Below, one piece after another: positions 29,876 through 33,374 of a stretch of DNA of 64,000 nt. Position 1 is the stretch's first letter. Each line of letters starts with the position of its first letter. Location of the stretch: NCBI GenBank assembly GCA_963663965.2, contig CAXXFK010000023.1, positions 32,001 through 96,000 on the forward strand. The letters run 5' to 3'. The notes below the pieces were generated by a model, which saw only the letters and a list, made by a program, of their open reading frames with translations, had not been told where the DNA came from and searched no databases. The translations under genes and the position numbers were made by a program. The DNA comes from Sedimentisphaerales bacterium. GTDB taxonomy: Bacteria > Planctomycetota > Phycisphaerae > Sedimentisphaerales > SM23-30.

Positions 29876-30484
29876 TCATCGATCACACCACAAAATCAAC
29901 CGCACATCATCTGGCGCGCCAAATCCTCTCAGTTCCTGAATGATATTCGAGAGGTGCGTTTCTCCAAAAGCTTTGCGATATGTTTCCGTCCAAGTAACGA
30001 TACAACCATTACGCATCATCTCGGAATAGCTAAGGATCCCCTCAGGTAGCCCATGTTGATTCGGATTGAATTTCACCGCATCTTCTTTTGAAACCATTGC
30101 TTCTCGAACAATTAAGTTCTTATCCCATTCAAAGTCAAGAATCTCTTGCAGCGTTACCCAGCTGGAATGCGCCACATCTTGGCCTATTGAATAATAATCT
30201 GCGGCAACTTCGGCACAGGCATCCTCTGGAAAACCGCGCTCCGGCACAATGGGCGAGATGGGGTCTTTGGACCAGGCATAACGCTCATTTATCAGTATGG
30301 CCGCATAAATTTTTGAATCACCGATTTCTATCGGCCGCGGAATCATGGCTGGATAGGGACAGGGCTTCTCATCCGGATATGGCTCATCTGAACAATAGCA
30401 ATCCGGATTAGGCACCATTTCCGTAGCACGTTGCCATATCTTATCGATCCGGATTTCAGGGTAAGCCCAAACCGAAATAGACAT
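29876..30484 (-). CDS. Hypothetical protein
   Basis: 202-aa ORF with an AAGGAG RBS. It contains RGFPED, HSSWVTLQEILDFEW and DDVRLILWCD motifs but no recognisable function. Confidence 0.7.
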   Translation of the reverse strand: MSISVWAYPEIRIDKIWQRATEMVPNPDCYCSDEPYPDEKPCPYPAMIPRPIEIGDSKIYAAILINERYAWSKDPISPIVPERGFPEDACAEVAADYYSIGQDVAHSSWVTLQEILDFEWDKNLIVREAMVSKEDAVKFNPNQHGLPEGILSYSEMMRNGCIVTWTETYRKAFGETHLSNIIQELRGFGAPDDVRLILWCDR

Positions 30485-31019
30485 TTAAAGACTCCTTATA
30501 TCTCGAATCTATATAAAACACAGTATATATTATTTTGTTGACAACTCCTGAAATCAAAATAAATCTTTAAGATCAAGTCGCCGAATTTCATATCAAAATT
30601 GAAACCGCCCTAAAGATATATAATCACAAATATTATGTTAATAAGTTCCAAGTAAGCTAAACTGCGACAGGGGCAATTCTTCTTCCTTCAACCAGTTATT
30701 TGCCATTAATGCCAGATCTTTAACCTCTTCCGGCTGTTCCTTCACTTGCTTCACTATCTTCTATGAAGCCAGAGGTCAAGAGGGAAAAGTGGTTTATATG
30801 GCATTTTATTGTATTTCCTTATTTCAAAACATGTTATCCTGTCCTTGCCCTTGCGGAGGATAAGGCAACGCTGAGGAGCGACCTGAGCGCCGTCAAGGGG
30901 TCCGGGAAGGCAGGCGGCGTACCTACGCCGCCCCTCCTGCCTTTTTGGACGATAAGCGATAAACCTGATCAAACAAATTTTCGCGCAGCGAATCCTTATT
31001 TTTATTCGATAAAATGCTC

Positions 31020-31200
31020 GATTGTTTCAGCCTTCTATCCGGGGTGTCCAGGTCTTCTTTTTTTACCATGGTCCCATTCCATCGTTTACGATACGGCTTA
31101 ATCTTCACGTCAGGCTCTAGACCCATCAAGTGAAACAAGGTTCCATATCGATGTCAATCAAGCAAAATCTAAGCATTCGTTAAAATCAGTCAAAGAACGG
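31020..31200 (-). ncRNA. Putative bridge/seek RNA of the IS1111-type element (boundaries approximate)
   Basis: Four short segments match the reconstructed target (TTCACT, CGTGAAGAT) and the donor junction (CATGGTA, ATAGAAG), in target-loop then donor-loop order. Confidence 0.65.
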
Positions 31201-31221
31201 TACGCGATCAAAACGTATTTT

Positions 31222-32277
31222 TTATCCGGATACGGCAGCCTTCAGCGGCGGCATCTGCCAGGGCGTCCCATCGCGCAACATCGCCCACATCCGCACAAAC
31301 AACCGCCGCGCCACCGCGATAATCGCTATCTTGGAGCGTGTCTTGCTGTCGCGCCGGATCCGCTGATACGTTTCTCGTATCCACGGATTGGTTCGCTGGC
31401 CCAGCCAGCAGATCTCCACCAGCAGACTTCGCAGCAAACGATTGCCATCCTTACTGATGCGGCCCTGCCGGTCGATCGTTCCCGATTGATACTGGCGCGG
31501 GGTCATACCGATATAGCAGCCCACCTGCTTGCAGTTCTGAAACCGGTGGGGATTATCGATTAAAGCGGCCACCGCTTCGGCCGTCCGTTCGCCCACGCCC
31601 GGAATGGTCGTGAGCAATTGCACGTGCCGGTCCGTTTGGTTCAGGGCATGCAGTTTGTTGTCGATCACCAACAACAATTCGCCCAGAGTGTGCAATAACT
31701 CCAATTCCACCCACAAGCTGCCACGCCAGAGCGCCTCCACCGGCACCTCGGCCATGGGACAGGCCAGACTCCGCAAATGGGCGATCTGTTTTTGCGACCA
31801 GCCGTTTTTGCCGGAAGGCATCGGCAGGGCCTGACGATCCAGCAGCGCCCGGATGGTGTTTTTGCATTGTGTTATTCGTTCGACGATACTTTTCCGTTCA
31901 TTAATCAAGGCCCGTTTCTCGCGCACCGCCTTACCCGGCACATAGACGGTCGGCAGATCGCCCAGTGCCGTCCGACGGGCCAGCCACAGCGCATCCTTGC
32001 GATCCGTCTTCTTTTTCAGGCGTTTACCCCGCCACTCCTCACTATTGGTATTGGCCACTCGATAATCAATCTCCAAATCATCCAATAAATCGCAGATCCA
32101 ACCAATGATACCACAGGCCTCGAAAACCACACAATCGGCCGAATGAGTCACCACCAGATCGTGAATCGCCTGCGGACGGGTGGGAATCGTCCAATATTCC
32201 TGGGCGCCGCTGCCAATTTGATAACGACACGCTACACTCTTGAATTTTCCTAAATCAATTGCCATAATAGTCTTCAT
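31222..32277 (-). CDS. IS110 family transposase/recombinase
   Basis: DEDD RuvC-like residues (AIDLG, FEAC, KTDRKDA), IPGVG, QYQSG (catalytic Ser) and RISKDGNRLLR. AGGAG RBS before ATG 32277. Confidence 0.95.
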   Translation of the reverse strand: MKTIMAIDLGKFKSVACRYQIGSGAQEYWTIPTRPQAIHDLVVTHSADCVVFEACGIIGWICDLLDDLEIDYRVANTNSEEWRGKRLKKKTDRKDALWLARRTALGDLPTVYVPGKAVREKRALINERKSIVERITQCKNTIRALLDRQALPMPSGKNGWSQKQIAHLRSLACPMAEVPVEALWRGSLWVELELLHTLGELLLVIDNKLHALNQTDRHVQLLTTIPGVGERTAEAVAALIDNPHRFQNCKQVGCYIGMTPRQYQSGTIDRQGRISKDGNRLLRSLLVEICWLGQRTNPWIRETYQRIRRDSKTRSKIAIIAVARRLFVRMWAMLRDGTPWQMPPLKAAVSG

Positions 32278-32585
32278 AGCCAGAATGCTCCTGTAAAAAG
32301 GTGTCATGAGCGCCCCCCGGGCAGCTCGTGTTCATATACAACAAATGTGCATTATAGCACGAACCACCGCAACGGGACATTCTGGCTTTCATGATATCTT
32401 CACGGTAAATAATGTATTTTGGTTTTTTGCCTTCCCCGGCTGTTCCTCCACTCTCTTCACTACCTTTAAGGGTATAGCTGGTTTATATTCTTATTCCATC
32501 CCCACCTTCAGCCGCATCCAGTTCACCTCTAAACAAAATTGTGTCATGCTACTATTTGTAAATATACAACATAATTCCCTTTGTT

Positions 32586-33374
32586 TTAATACACCGCCGC
32601 CGGCAACCGTACCGCCTGGCCGGGCGATGAATGAAGCTGTTCCGAAATCGACTCTAGAAACTGCTGAAAAACCTCCGCCGTTAGACGCTCATTCCCATAA
32701 TGATACCGGTAAATTGCGCTCATTTCCTCCGGTTTATAACGCCGGGCCGTTGTCACAATATACCGGGCCAGCCTTGGCTGTAGCGAAAAATTCAATTGTT
32801 CCGCAAGCGCCAGGGATTTTACCAGACACCGCAATGGATCCGGATTGGCTTCCAGATTGATATCGATGGATTCGTTTAAAATGGCCTCAAAAAATCCTTT
32901 GGAATAAATTGTCCGCATTCTGCCCGACCGTACAAAAAGCTGCACGGCAATTGCGTCAATATCCAGAAAAGTCGTCTTGGTATAATCCTCAAAATGCTCT
33001 CGATAACCAACCAGTCGTTGCTTAAAGGCCCAGGTCTCACTTAAGGGCCATATGTCTATTTTGTTTTGTATGACTTGAAACGAAACGCCGCCAAAGCGAT
33101 TCATTTTAGGCTGGTACGCTTTGAATAAATCCCGGATGCGTTCCGCATCATGATCGCGCACAATGATATCGATATCCCTGATTTCATTCACCCTTACCAG
33201 AACCAGCCGCCTTACCGCCCCCCCACATAAGTAAGCCGAATCCTCGCCATATTGTTCGCGAATAAATTCCAATACTGTCCTGGCGTCATCCCCCCACGAA
33301 TCGCTATTCTGAATAAAACGATTCAGGCGACTCTGCAAGCGCTGTTCTAATTGTTCGATTTTGATGCTATCCAT
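32586..33374 (-). CDS. Small class II (CCA/poly(A) polymerase head-like) nucleotidyltransferase
   Basis: YLCGGAVR...RDIDIIV (GG plus DxD), NRFGG, IDIW, TTFLDIDAIA and PDPLR. Only 262 aa. The start overlaps the dGTPase stop by 8 nt. Confidence 0.75.
   Translation of the reverse strand: MDSIKIEQLEQRLQSRLNRFIQNSDSWGDDARTVLEFIREQYGEDSAYLCGGAVRRLVLVRVNEIRDIDIIVRDHDAERIRDLFKAYQPKMNRFGGVSFQVIQNKIDIWPLSETWAFKQRLVGYREHFEDYTKTTFLDIDAIAVQLFVRSGRMRTIYSKGFFEAILNESIDINLEANPDPLRCLVKSLALAEQLNFSLQPRLARYIVTTARRYKPEEMSAIYRYHYGNERLTAEVFQQFLESISEQLHSSPGQAVRLPAAVY

What the first reader, a model, noticed from the sequence alone, without database searches (positions are those of the whole stretch)
30730..32410. 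IS1111-type element with readable bridge-RNA target and donor guides
Seen: removing the element reconstructs the target CTTCACT-AT-CTTCACG, and the circle junction (donor) is TCATGAT-AT-CTTCTAT. Four segments occur in order on the transposase strand of the 3' non-coding end. TTCACT (31134-29) equals target-left. CGTGAAGAT (31109-01) is the reverse complement of core+target-right. CATGGTA (31070-64) is donor-left with one A>G. ATAGAAG (31038-32) is the reverse complement of donor-right. Each pair is separated by a short potential stem. Established: IS110/IS1111 recombinases use such bispecific RNAs. Inference: this is a programmable recombinase with an AT core.
Basis: partly seen in the sequence, partly recalled or inferred. 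Interest (0 to 1): 0.75.

Follow-up and report, generated by a model that had tools for sequence, protein, structure and literature searches.

The report
RNA-guided jumping gene with passenger RNA
This is an intact IS1111-type insertion sequence whose own guide ("bridge" or "seek") RNA spells out its landing site, a kind of system known since 2024; it also carries a second small RNA gene that turns up inside many unrelated jumping genes.

Summary
The element is real: 1640 bp (window 30758-32397), transposase on the minus strand. A second, identical copy sits at a near-identical site, and an unoccupied site with the exact target lies elsewhere in the genome.

A 144-nt structured RNA lies downstream of the transposase gene (31159-31016, minus strand). 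A covariance model built only from 29 relatives finds it as the sole hit in the 64-kb window (105 bits). Its stems covary: 23 of 26 pairs show compensatory changes.

They sit at the positions where relatives carry sequences matching their own flanks or ends.

The fourth, CATGGTA, is not supported. It lies inside a hairpin. Positional homology points instead to GAUGG (31083-31079) in the multiloop.

The AT core is plausible but not fixed, because donor and target share 7 nt. No RNA data exist.

Verdict: a new member of a known kind (IS1111 seekRNA/bridge RNA). The scan has found this kind before in other genomes.

Unexpected: the distal right end holds a convergent, about 165-nt small-RNA gene on the plus strand (about 30844-31004). 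Its conserved core recurs next to transposases of at least six families in metagenomes and matches no Rfam family.

The parts
30758..32397 (-). Whole insertion sequence, 1640 bp counting one copy of the AT shared by both junctions (equally 30756-32395).
   Evidence: An identical 1640-bp copy lies in G000:C30 with different outer flanks. An empty site lies in C36. One contig of run X1 joins 30757 to 32398.
30749..30757 (.). Target half-site plus AT on the low-coordinate side (CTTCACT-AT on the + strand; right target AGTGAAG on the transposase strand).
32396..32404 (.). AT plus target half-site on the high-coordinate side (AT-CTTCACG on the + strand; left target CGTGAAG-AT on the transposase strand).
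31222..32277 (-). Transposase/recombinase gene, 351 aa from ATG 32277 (MKTIMAIDLG; an in-frame ATG also lies at 32307), stop included.
   Evidence: ORF list. Pfam PF01548 + PF02371. NCBIfam NF033542. Invariant D8, E53, D92, D95 and S265-G266 in a 4-way alignment.
32381..32392 (-). Left-end subterminal inverted repeat ATGAAAGCCAGA, 3 nt (ATC) inside the AT.
   Evidence: the same motif occurs in relatives
30763..30773 (-). Right-end subterminal inverted repeat (TCTGGCTTCAT on the transposase strand), followed by AGAAG and then AT.
30774..30779 (-). Outward-facing -35 hexamer TTGACC in the right end. Joined to the left end it gives TTGACC-17-TATCAT, a candidate circle-junction promoter.
   Evidence: 10 of 12 matches. 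A TTG-hexamer lies at the same distance in 25 of 25 distinct relatives' right ends, 18 of them TTGACA.
32351..32359 (-). Extended -10-like TGCTATAAT upstream of the transposase gene in the left end.
   Evidence: Read. TGTTATAAT lies at the matching place in relatives B and C. Not tested further.
31016..31159 (-). Bridge/seek RNA scaffold, 144 nt.
   Evidence: Model R2, built without this sequence, gives 105.1 bits, E 3.4e-29, the only hit in the window. Stem covariation.
31129..31134 (-). Guide 1 (right-target guide): UUCACU, complementary to the top strand AGTGAA next to the core.
   Evidence: own flank 4.97 vs other flanks 2.84 mean longest match
31111..31125 (-). Small hairpin (UGGGU...GCCUG) between the two target guides.
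   Evidence: helix 5, 95.7% paired, 4 of 5 pairs with double changes
31101..31109 (-). Guide 2 (left-target guide): CGUGAAGAU, which equals left target + AT.
   Evidence: p = 0.002 alone. Relatives carry their own left flank + core at this place.
31079..31083 (-). Candidate right-donor guide GAUGG in the multiloop; GAU is complementary to the first three bases (ATC) of the left end.
   Evidence: Positional homology: ACT ends pair with AGU in 15 of 19 rows, GCT with AGC in 2 of 3, ATC with GAU here. Short, so moderate confidence.
31040..31076 (-). Donor-arm hairpin (closing stem UGGG/CCCG).
   Evidence: helix 6, 97.8% paired, 3 of 4 pairs with double changes
31032..31038 (-). Guide 4 (left-donor guide): AUAGAAG, which equals the last bases of the right end.
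   Evidence: It covaries with right ends: ATAGAAG, ATAGAAA (relative B) and ATAGGAG (C-type and L050).
31166..31193 (-). Promoter-like site TTGACT-16-TAGATT just upstream of the RNA. Weak: it is not conserved.
   Evidence: Only 2 of 34 relatives have such a site, against 46 of 680 shuffles.
30809..31004 (+). Passenger small-RNA gene, convergent with the bridge RNA. Promoter TTGTAT-17-TGTTAT (30809-30837). Stem 30848-30856/30890-30899 encloses the conserved core GGAGGAUAAGGCAACGCUGAGGAGCGACCUGAGCG. Long hairpin + U5 (30900-30950). GCGAUAAACCU (30956-30966). Terminal hairpin + U-run (30980-31004).
   Evidence: see Noticed in passing and the full report

Best explanation
Window 30758-32397 is an intact, recently active IS1111-group member of the IS110 family.

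What it encodes (shown):
- Its DEDD recombinase gene is followed on the same strand by a 144-nt bridge/seek RNA.
- An outer stem (GAUUG/CAAUC) closes a three-way junction.
- One arm carries an internal loop with the two target guides on either side of a small hairpin. UUCACU pairs with the top strand of the right target. CGUGAAGAU pairs with the bottom strand of the left target plus core.
- The junction itself carries the donor guides on either side of a second hairpin: AUAGAAG for the right end and, probably, GAUGG for the left end.

How it most likely works (inferred from the family):
- The element excises as a circle.
- Joining its ends creates a TTGACC-17-TATCAT promoter.
- The recombinase-RNA complex pairs the circle junction with sites of the form CGTGAAG-AT-AGTGAAG. 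These lie in a dispersed repeat of this genome.
- Strands are exchanged at a dinucleotide within the shared GAAGATA, most likely AT.

The distal right end additionally carries an unrelated, convergent small-RNA gene of unknown function.
For: - Protein family.
- Two identical copies at near-identical sites, an exact empty site, and 16 sites within 2 mismatches against 1.1 expected.
- Subterminal inverted repeats and a 464-nt 3' versus 120-nt 5' non-coding end.
- The RNA scaffold is found full-length, always on the transposase strand downstream of the gene, in 45 of 69 related loci at E <= 1.3e-5.
- A model built without the window or its closest relative hits only 31159-31016 in 64 kb (105.1 bits).
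- Stems: 90.7% paired, 23 of 26 pairs with compensatory changes, 0 of 500 shuffles as high, slid controls 22-41%.
- Guides versus flanks in 35 element/flank sets (22 distinct guide pairs): the variable part of the left-target guide gives own 4.37 vs other 2.18; the right-target guide gives own 4.97 vs other 2.84.
- Examples: relative B has CACGAAAAU for the flank CACGAAA-AT; relative C has CGGACACCUU for AA-GGTGTCCG.
- The left-donor guide follows the right end (ATAGAAG / ATAGAAA / ATAGGAG).
- Guide order and the multiloop donor site agree with PMC11187229 (section 9) and PMC11208160 (section 12).
- Junction promoter.
Against: - No RNA data: no listed run is on record as RNA, so neither expression nor RNA ends are shown.
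- On this sequence alone only the 9-mer is individually significant.
- The right-target guide is 6 nt and does not reach the core. The left-donor guide stops before AT.
- The proposed right-donor guide is only 3 Watson-Crick pairs plus one wobble.
- The left-target and left-donor guides, aligned to the family, point to different core positions (AT versus AA).
- The alignment used for stem counts was fitted to the model, which favours the structure.
- The promoter-like site upstream of the RNA is not conserved.
- The empty-site contig (depth 2, 30 letters on the shorter side) could come from the paralogous site in C36.
Confidence: 0.9

Rival explanations
1. One reading: CAUGGUA (31070-31064) is the right-donor guide and pairs with TATCATG through one G-T wobble.
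For: It is a 6-of-7 match with a wobble at the odd position, in the expected order between the target guides and AUAGAAG.
Against: - The best exact match to the expected guide is no better than shuffles (p = 0.89).
- The segment lies inside the donor-arm hairpin, whose closing stem covaries.
- Relative B keeps CCAUGG there although its left end is ACAATGA, not ATCATGA.
- C-type relatives have a plain stem at this place.
Confidence: 0.12
2. The core is AA, as in most relatives, not AT. The right end would then stop at ...TTCATAG and the left end would begin GATATCATGA.
For: - The left-donor guide AUAGAAG is identical to that of relatives whose right end is CATAG + AA.
- In relative B the copies differ right after CATAGAA, which is easier to explain as variation in the target than in the element's end.
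- Donor and target share GAAGATA, so AA is allowed.
Against: - The left-target guide ends ...GAAG-AU exactly where relatives end ...AG-AA.
- The 3-nt spacing between core and ATGAAAGCC holds with AT (ATC) as in relatives (ACT).
- B's guide 1 and its right-donor candidate both carry AU at the core position.
Confidence: 0.25
3. The guide matches are a by-product. The target is a near-direct repeat (GTGAAG..GTGAAG), so a hairpin in the RNA could match both halves by chance, and the recombinase would recognise the site by protein-DNA contacts.
For: Guides 1 and 2 are complementary to each other (UUCAC/GUGAA) and the MFE fold pairs them. The single-sequence fold is not better than shuffles (z -0.65).
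Against: - Relatives whose two target halves are unrelated (C: TTAAG-AA-GGTGTCCG; L081, L085, L102, L106) still carry both matches at the same positions.
- The own-versus-other contrast.
- Published experiments on the family (PMC11187229 abstract; PMC11208160 abstract).
Confidence: 0.03
4. The distal right-end module (30809-31004) is not an RNA gene. It would be a DNA-level feature, such as an inward-facing terminator/insulator or a protein-binding site that different insertion sequences have captured.
For: It contains two terminator-like hairpins. It occurs in both orientations relative to the neighbouring transposase gene. No expression data exist.
Against: - One conserved pair shows 21 G-U against 3 unpaired cells on the promoter strand; these would be A-C mismatches on the other strand.
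- A sigma-70-like promoter is enriched at a fixed distance upstream on that strand: 37 of 75 loci against 123 of 1500 shuffles.
- The 33-nt loop is nearly invariant while the flanking stem covaries.
Confidence: 0.2

Closest known systems
IS1111-family elements with seekRNA (ISEc11, ISPa11, ISKpn4, ISPst6; Siddiquee et al. 2024, PMC11187229; abstract and sections 6, 8, 9, 13 read)
   Same: - DEDD transposase of about 350 aa with a G-x-P----SG motif (GMTPRQYQSG).
- Subterminal inverted repeats and a long non-coding region downstream of the gene.
- Insertion into a repeated sequence at one defined position.
- An RNA with the top-strand match 5' of the bottom-strand match.
- A promoter formed by joining the ends.
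   Different: - No sequence-level relation to those elements was tested here.
- The host is a planctomycete.
- The target is a different repeat.
- This element carries an extra small-RNA gene in its right end.
- No experiment exists for it.
IS621 / ISCro4 bridge recombinases with bridge RNA (Durrant et al. 2024, PMC11208160, passages read; solved structures 8wt6 and 9t56)
   Same: - A bispecific RNA with separate target and donor guides.
- The left guides are identical to the top strand and include the core; the right guides are complementary to it.
- The C-terminal domain matches by sequence (E 3.3e-14 and 5e-16).
   Different: - The RNA lies at the 3' end, not the 5' end.
- The guide order is reversed.
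- The donor guides sit in a multiloop, not an internal loop.
- Long subterminal repeats are present.
- Only the C-terminal half aligns by phmmer.
ISPpu9 of Pseudomonas putida with the Ssr9 small-RNA module (Pares-Guillen et al. 2025, PMC12288879; abstract only)
   Same: An IS110-family element that carries a separate small-RNA gene downstream of the transposase gene. The authors regard it as a selfish passenger.
   Different: - No similarity between Ssr9 and the passenger here was tested.
- The passenger here is convergent with the transposase gene.
- It also occurs in IS3-, IS21-, IS256- and IS30-like contexts.

Membership tests
IS110 family, IS1111 group | DEDD (RuvC-like) N-terminal domain plus Transposase_20 C-terminal domain | tested here: met
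   PF01548 at 45.8 bits and PF02371 at 89.6 bits. NF033542 'IS110 family RNA-guided transposase' at 206.8 bits, cut-off 140.
IS110 family, IS1111 group | Conserved acidic residues and the G-x-P----S/T-G motif | tested here: met
   D8, E53, D92, D95 and S265-G266 are invariant among four proteins of 37-66% identity. The motif reads GMTPRQYQSG. That these are the catalytic residues is taken from the literature (PMC11187229, section 6), not tested.
IS110 family, IS1111 group | Subterminal inverted repeats of 7-17 bp | tested here: met
   ATGAAAGCCAGA (32392-32381) versus ATGAAGCCAGA (30763-30773): 11-12 bp with one extra A, 3 and 5 nt from the junctions.
IS110 family, IS1111 group | The longer non-coding region lies downstream of the transposase gene | tested here: met
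   464 nt downstream (31221-30758) against 120 nt upstream (32397-32278).
IS110 family, IS1111 group | Sequence-specific insertion at one position of a defined target, with no long duplication | tested here: met
   Two copies at CGTGAAG-AT-AGTGAAG and CATGAAG-AT-TGTGAAG, and an exact empty site. Only two insertions are available.
IS1111 seekRNA / bridge RNA | A structured RNA in the 3' non-coding region with segments matching both strands of the target, top-strand match first | tested here: met
   scaffold; guides track flanks. The order UUCACU then CGUGAAGAU agrees with PMC11187229, section 9.
IS1111 seekRNA / bridge RNA | Donor (element-end) guides | tested here: inconclusive
The left-donor guide AUAGAAG is supported. 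The right-donor guide is only a short candidate (GAUGG).
IS1111 seekRNA / bridge RNA | The RNA is made, binds the transposase and is required for transposition | not testable with these tools
   No RNA run is listed; no experiment.
IS110 family, IS1111 group | Circular intermediate with a junction promoter | tested here: inconclusive
   The joined ends give TTGACC-17-TATCAT, and the -35 is conserved in 25 of 25 relatives' right ends. No circle was observed (one search shows only a possible empty-site contig).
IS621-type bridge RNA (IS110 group) | RNA encoded in the left end, two simple internal loops, left guide before right guide | tested here: not met
   The RNA is in the right end, the order is reversed, and the donor guides are in a multiloop. 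It works like an IS621 bridge RNA but is not of that subgroup.
Any Rfam 15 family (for both RNAs) | Match to a curated covariance model | tested here: not met
   No relevant match at E <= 10 in window 30400-32800. Only tRNAs at gathering score in 20 loci that carry the passenger RNA.

The most novel reading that the evidence does not exclude
The element is a composite. Besides its own bridge RNA it carries a member of an undescribed, widely dispersed small-RNA family. This passenger has its own sigma-70-type promoter, a covarying stem around a nearly invariant 33-nt loop that displays GGAGGA and a UGAGGA hairpin loop, and two terminator-like hairpins. It hitchhikes in the ends of insertion sequences of at least six unrelated transposase families (IS3-like, IS21, IS110, IS256, IS30-like, DUF1670-associated). 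It would then be a selfish or transposition-modulating RNA shared across transposon families.
Probability: 0.45. Interest if true: 0.7.

Novelty: new member of a known kind. Interest (0 to 1): 0.4.

Why it matters
The bridge-RNA part adds a well-documented natural example from Planctomycetota:
- two copies, an empty site and about 30 relatives whose guides track their targets;
- it shows how the IS1111-type RNA places its donor guides in a three-way junction;
- it shows that a clade can shift its core from AA to (probably) AT.

This is useful for cataloguing programmable recombinases, but it is not a surprise.

The passenger small RNA is the part that could matter more. A single conserved RNA gene riding in many unrelated transposon families would point to an RNA-based function that is useful to transposons in general. 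Possible functions are control of read-in transcription, titration of a host factor, or pure selfish spread. I found no description of it, but I searched only Rfam 15 and the held paper library.

Tried and rejected
- Rfam at E <= 10 on 30400-32800 gave only a chance snoRNA-like match.
- Single-sequence folds of the non-coding end were no better than shuffles (z -0.65 and -0.90), so structure had to come from relatives.
- The search for related loci with the single protein found no relative. It worked with an alignment.
- Sequencing runs: no RNA holder is listed. Laid contigs of 4 runs gave one depth-2 contig joining 30757 to 32398, with 30 letters on the shorter side. This may be the paralogous empty site, so it is not used as proof of excision.
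- A promoter for the bridge RNA: the window has TTGACT-16-TAGATT, but only 2 of 34 relatives have such a site against 46 of 680 shuffles. Rejected as a family feature.
- The ORF 30763-31101 (+, 112 aa) across the passenger RNA is not coding: in relative B the matching frame is closed, and the similarity lies at nucleotide level (read).
- The passenger RNA as part of the bridge RNA: model R2 hits none of the 80 metagenome loci that carry it.
- Passenger RNA in plasmids: no blastn match in 72,556 plasmid records.
- Its core sequence appears in no paper of the held library. Two word searches for a transposon-borne structured RNA found nothing relevant.
- Relative D (37% identity, 4 copies) was not fitted to the guide scheme. 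Its non-coding end aligns poorly and it was left out of all counts.
Full report
**1. The observation**

- The only long ORF between 30.7 and 32.4 kb lies on the minus strand, 31222-32307, 361 aa. A likely start is the ATG at 32277 (MKTIMAIDLG, 351 aa).
- Pfam gives DEDD_Tnp_IS110 and Transposase_20. NCBIfam gives 'IS110 family RNA-guided transposase' at 206.8 bits against a cut-off of 140.
- A search of the window's own genome (7.24 Mb, 42 contigs) found a second copy in contig C30. It is identical over all 1640 bp.

On the transposase strand the two copies are flanked as follows:
- copy 1: CCGTGAAG-AT|element|AT-AGTGAAGC;
- copy 2: CCATGAAG-AT|element|AT-TGTGAAGG.

Contig C36 holds two unoccupied look-alike sites. 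One has the exact 17-mer CCGTGAAGATAGTGAAG. The other has GT in place of AT on this strand (AC on the strand shown).

Genome-wide the 17-mer has 1 exact site, 16 sites within two mismatches (1.1 expected) and 41 within three (16.5 expected). Most lie in a dispersed repeat. So the target reconstruction is confirmed.

**2. Chance on this sequence alone**

I shuffled the 464-nt non-coding end 5000 times, preserving dinucleotides.

| Segment | Match | p |
|---|---|---|
| Left-target guide | 9-mer CGTGAAGAT | 0.002 |
| Right-target guide | 6-mer TTCACT | 0.17 |
| Left-donor guide | 7-mer ATAGAAG | 0.086 |
| Right-donor guide | best exact match 5 nt | 0.89 |

The first three together occurred in 0 of 5000 shuffles. 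Single-sequence folding says nothing (z -0.65).

**3. Relatives**

A search of 25 genomes of the same family found three multi-copy relatives:
- B: 66% identity, 9 copies, in G012;
- C: 48% identity, 9 copies, in G006;
- D: 37% identity, 4 copies.

A scan of one genome per species with a 4-protein alignment found 188 candidate stretches that encode a relative. Of these 79 loci were kept. Most come from Planctomycetota, with some from Acidobacteriota and others.

Copies of B and C define their ends.

| Element | Left end begins | Right end closes | Flanks |
|---|---|---|---|
| Window | ATC-ATGAAAGCCAGA | TCTGGCTTCAT-AGAAG | CGTGAAG-AT / AGTGAAG |
| B | ACA-ATGAAAGCCAGA | TCTGGCTTCAT-AGAA(A) | CACGAAA-AT / TCACGAAAG |
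| C | ACT-ATGAAAGCCAGA | TCTGGCTTCAT-AGG | TTAAG-AA / GGTGTCCG |

**4. The RNA**

Aligning the non-coding ends shows a shared scaffold with variable segments.
- At the place of the window's CGTGAAGAT, B has CACGAAAAT and C has TTAAGAA. Each equals its own left flank plus core.
- At the place of TTCACT, B has TCGTG and C has CGGACACCTT. Each is the reverse complement of its own right flank.

A covariance model from these three sequences was run on 69 loci.
- It gave 47 matches. Of these 45 were full-length at E <= 1.3e-5 and two were weak (E 0.64 and 0.8).
- All lie on the transposase strand, downstream of the gene.

Stem counts on the 34 distinct sequences:
- 90.7% of cells are paired;
- 23 of 26 pairs have compensatory changes;
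- 0 of 500 shuffles reach the observed values;
- partners slid by 1-3 columns give 22-41% paired.

This alignment was fitted to the model, which favours the structure.

As an independent test I rebuilt the model from 29 relatives only, without the window or B. It finds one hit in the 64-kb window: 31159-31016 on the minus strand, 105.1 bits, E 3.4e-29, full length.

**5. Guides against flanks**

I could place both ends for 40 of the 47 matches. I then dropped 5 whose left end was clearly mis-assigned: L100, L101, L108, L086 and L049. That left 35 element/flank sets with 22 distinct guide pairs.

The measure is the longest common word between a guide and a flank. The shared AGAA/core part was excluded.

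| Guide | Own flank (n = 35) | Other elements' flanks (n = 735) |
|---|---|---|
| Left-target guide | mean 4.37 | mean 2.18 |
| Right-target guide | mean 4.97 | mean 2.84 |

The 'other' set includes related elements with similar targets, so the contrast is conservative. Not every element fits: L071, L084 and L091 have poor right-target matches.

The left-donor guide follows the right end:
- ATAGAAG with CATAGAAG;
- ATAGAAA in B;
- ATAGGAG where the end is CATAGGAG (C-type and L050).

**6. The fourth guide**

- B keeps CCATGG there although its left end differs.
- C-type relatives have a plain stem there.

In relatives, the five bases just 5' of AAUGGG read AGUUG or AGUUU. This is the complement of the first three bases of the left end (ACT) plus one or two core bases. 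The counts come from 27 distinct rows:
- ACT pairs with AGU in 15 of 19 rows;
- GCT pairs with AGC in 2 of 3 rows;
- the window has ATC with GAU, two changes in concert;
- B (ACA with UAU) fits at 2 of 3 positions;
- L061/L063 (TCT) does not fit.

So the likelier right-donor guide is GAUGG, 31083-31079, in the three-way junction. This matches the remark in PMC11208160 (section 12, passages read) that many IS1111 bridge RNAs hold donor-binding nucleotides in a multiloop.

The order of the target guides, top-strand match first, is the one stated for IS1111 seekRNAs in PMC11187229 (abstract and section 9).

**7. The core**

Donor (CATA-GAAGATA-TCATG) and target (CCGT-GAAGATA-GTGAAG) share seven bases. 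The exchanged dinucleotide therefore cannot be read from sequence.
- For AT: the left-target guide, the 3-nt spacing to the inverted repeat, and B's guides.
- For AA, as in most of the clade: the left-donor guide, and the variation among B's copies.
- I rate AT at about 0.7.

**8. Other features**

- The right end carries an outward -35. Joined to the left end it gives TTGACC-17-TATCAT.
- A TTG-hexamer sits at the same distance in 25 of 25 distinct relatives' right ends, 18 of them TTGACA. This fits the junction promoter described for the family (PMC11187229, section 8).
- A promoter-like site precedes the RNA in the window. It is not conserved, so the RNA may be processed from the transposase transcript.
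- The closest solved structures are ISCro4 (9t56) and IS621 (8wt6), matched over the C-terminal half only.
- No RNA run is listed.

**9. The passenger RNA**

The window and B share about 200 nt of right-end sequence that other relatives lack.

It also hit:
- 6 viral contigs;
- 5 of 401 sampled genomes of the phylum, with 0 for the reversed control pattern;
- only the two element copies in the window's own genome.

The 80 fetched loci share an architecture:
- a sigma-70-like promoter;
- a variable stem around a nearly invariant loop, GGAGGAUAGGGCAACGCUGAGGAGCGACCCGAGCG;
- a long hairpin with a U-run;
- GCGAUAAACCU;
- a last hairpin.

Evidence that it is an RNA on the promoter strand:
- On 69 sequences the stems are 86.1% paired, and 0 of 500 shuffles reach this.
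- One pair reads GC 38, GU 21, AU 4, CG 3. This fixes the RNA strand as the promoter strand, which is the window's plus strand.
- Promoter-like sites score 9 or more in 37 of 75 loci against 123 of 1500 shuffles. Thirty of the 37 lie 15-23 nt upstream.
- The window's copy (30840-31005, +) folds as predicted, z -3.51.

Context:
- By my count of the table, neighbouring ORFs in 47 of 80 loci are of these types: rve-type (18), IstB (8), IS110 (6), DUF1670 (7), HTH_38 (4), Transposase_mut (2) or other transposase-like proteins (2).
- Both orientations relative to the neighbouring gene occur.
- In five contigs of one IS3-type element the module lies inside the right inverted repeat.

Searches for a known identity found nothing:
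- the bridge-RNA model hits none of these loci;
- Rfam finds nothing;
- no plasmid record matches;
- no paper in the held library has the core sequence.

Its function is unknown. The nearest published parallel is the Ssr9 module of ISPpu9 (PMC12288879, abstract only).

**10. Verdict**

- The finding is real and well supported, with one guide reassigned and the core left open.
- It is a new member of a known kind. Earlier reports of this scan reached the same verdict for similar elements in other genomes.
- The passenger RNA deserves its own follow-up.

Noticed in passing
window 30809-31004 (+ strand), inside the element's right end: A convergent small-RNA gene. It has a promoter TTGTAT-17-TGTTAT, a covarying stem around a nearly invariant 33-nt loop, and two terminator-like hairpins. 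The same module occurs in 118 or more metagenome stretches, next to transposases of IS3-like, IS21, IS110, IS256, IS30-like and DUF1670 types, in both orientations. It has no Rfam match, no plasmid match and no paper with its sequence.
   Followed up: partly
window 30700-30757 and 32398-32480; G000:C36 13650-14400; many other contigs: The target lies in a dispersed repeat of about 60-100 bp built on GTGAAG heptads (…TTTACCGTGAAGATAGTGAAGCAAGTGAAGGAACAGCCGG…). It has 16 sites within 2 mismatches of the 17-mer. Several variants (CCATGAAGATCGTGAAG, CCGTGAAGTAAGTGAAG) recur with conserved flanks. The nature of the repeat is unknown.
   Followed up: partly
L003 1016-1414 (+), G000:C36, between the two empty target sites: A 132-aa ORF (MKPEPEITELARNVIGCAIEVHKVLGPGLLESAY…) sits between two copies of the target repeat. 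From memory it resembles the GxxExxY/PD-(D/E)XK-like small proteins, but no family search was run.
   Followed up: no
L017/L019 (G012:C1 about 713-719 kb), L018 and L024 (G006): Relatives B and C occur as closely spaced or tandem copies. For example, two B copies lie 2 kb apart. In L018 a C copy's right flank runs straight into another left end (…CATAGGAGGTGTCCGGGTGAATTAAGAAACTATGAAAGCC).
   Followed up: no
run X3 (sediment metagenome) on window 30853-30893: Several short, high-depth contigs from another study match only the 40-nt core of the passenger RNA at 95% or more. This was the first hint that the core is far more widespread than the element.
   Followed up: yes
L117, L129, L140, L175, L178, L182, L184: Pairs of DUF1670 (PF07900) genes lie directly upstream of the passenger RNA, co-directional with it. 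This suggests an uncharacterised mobile element built on DUF1670 proteins.
   Followed up: no
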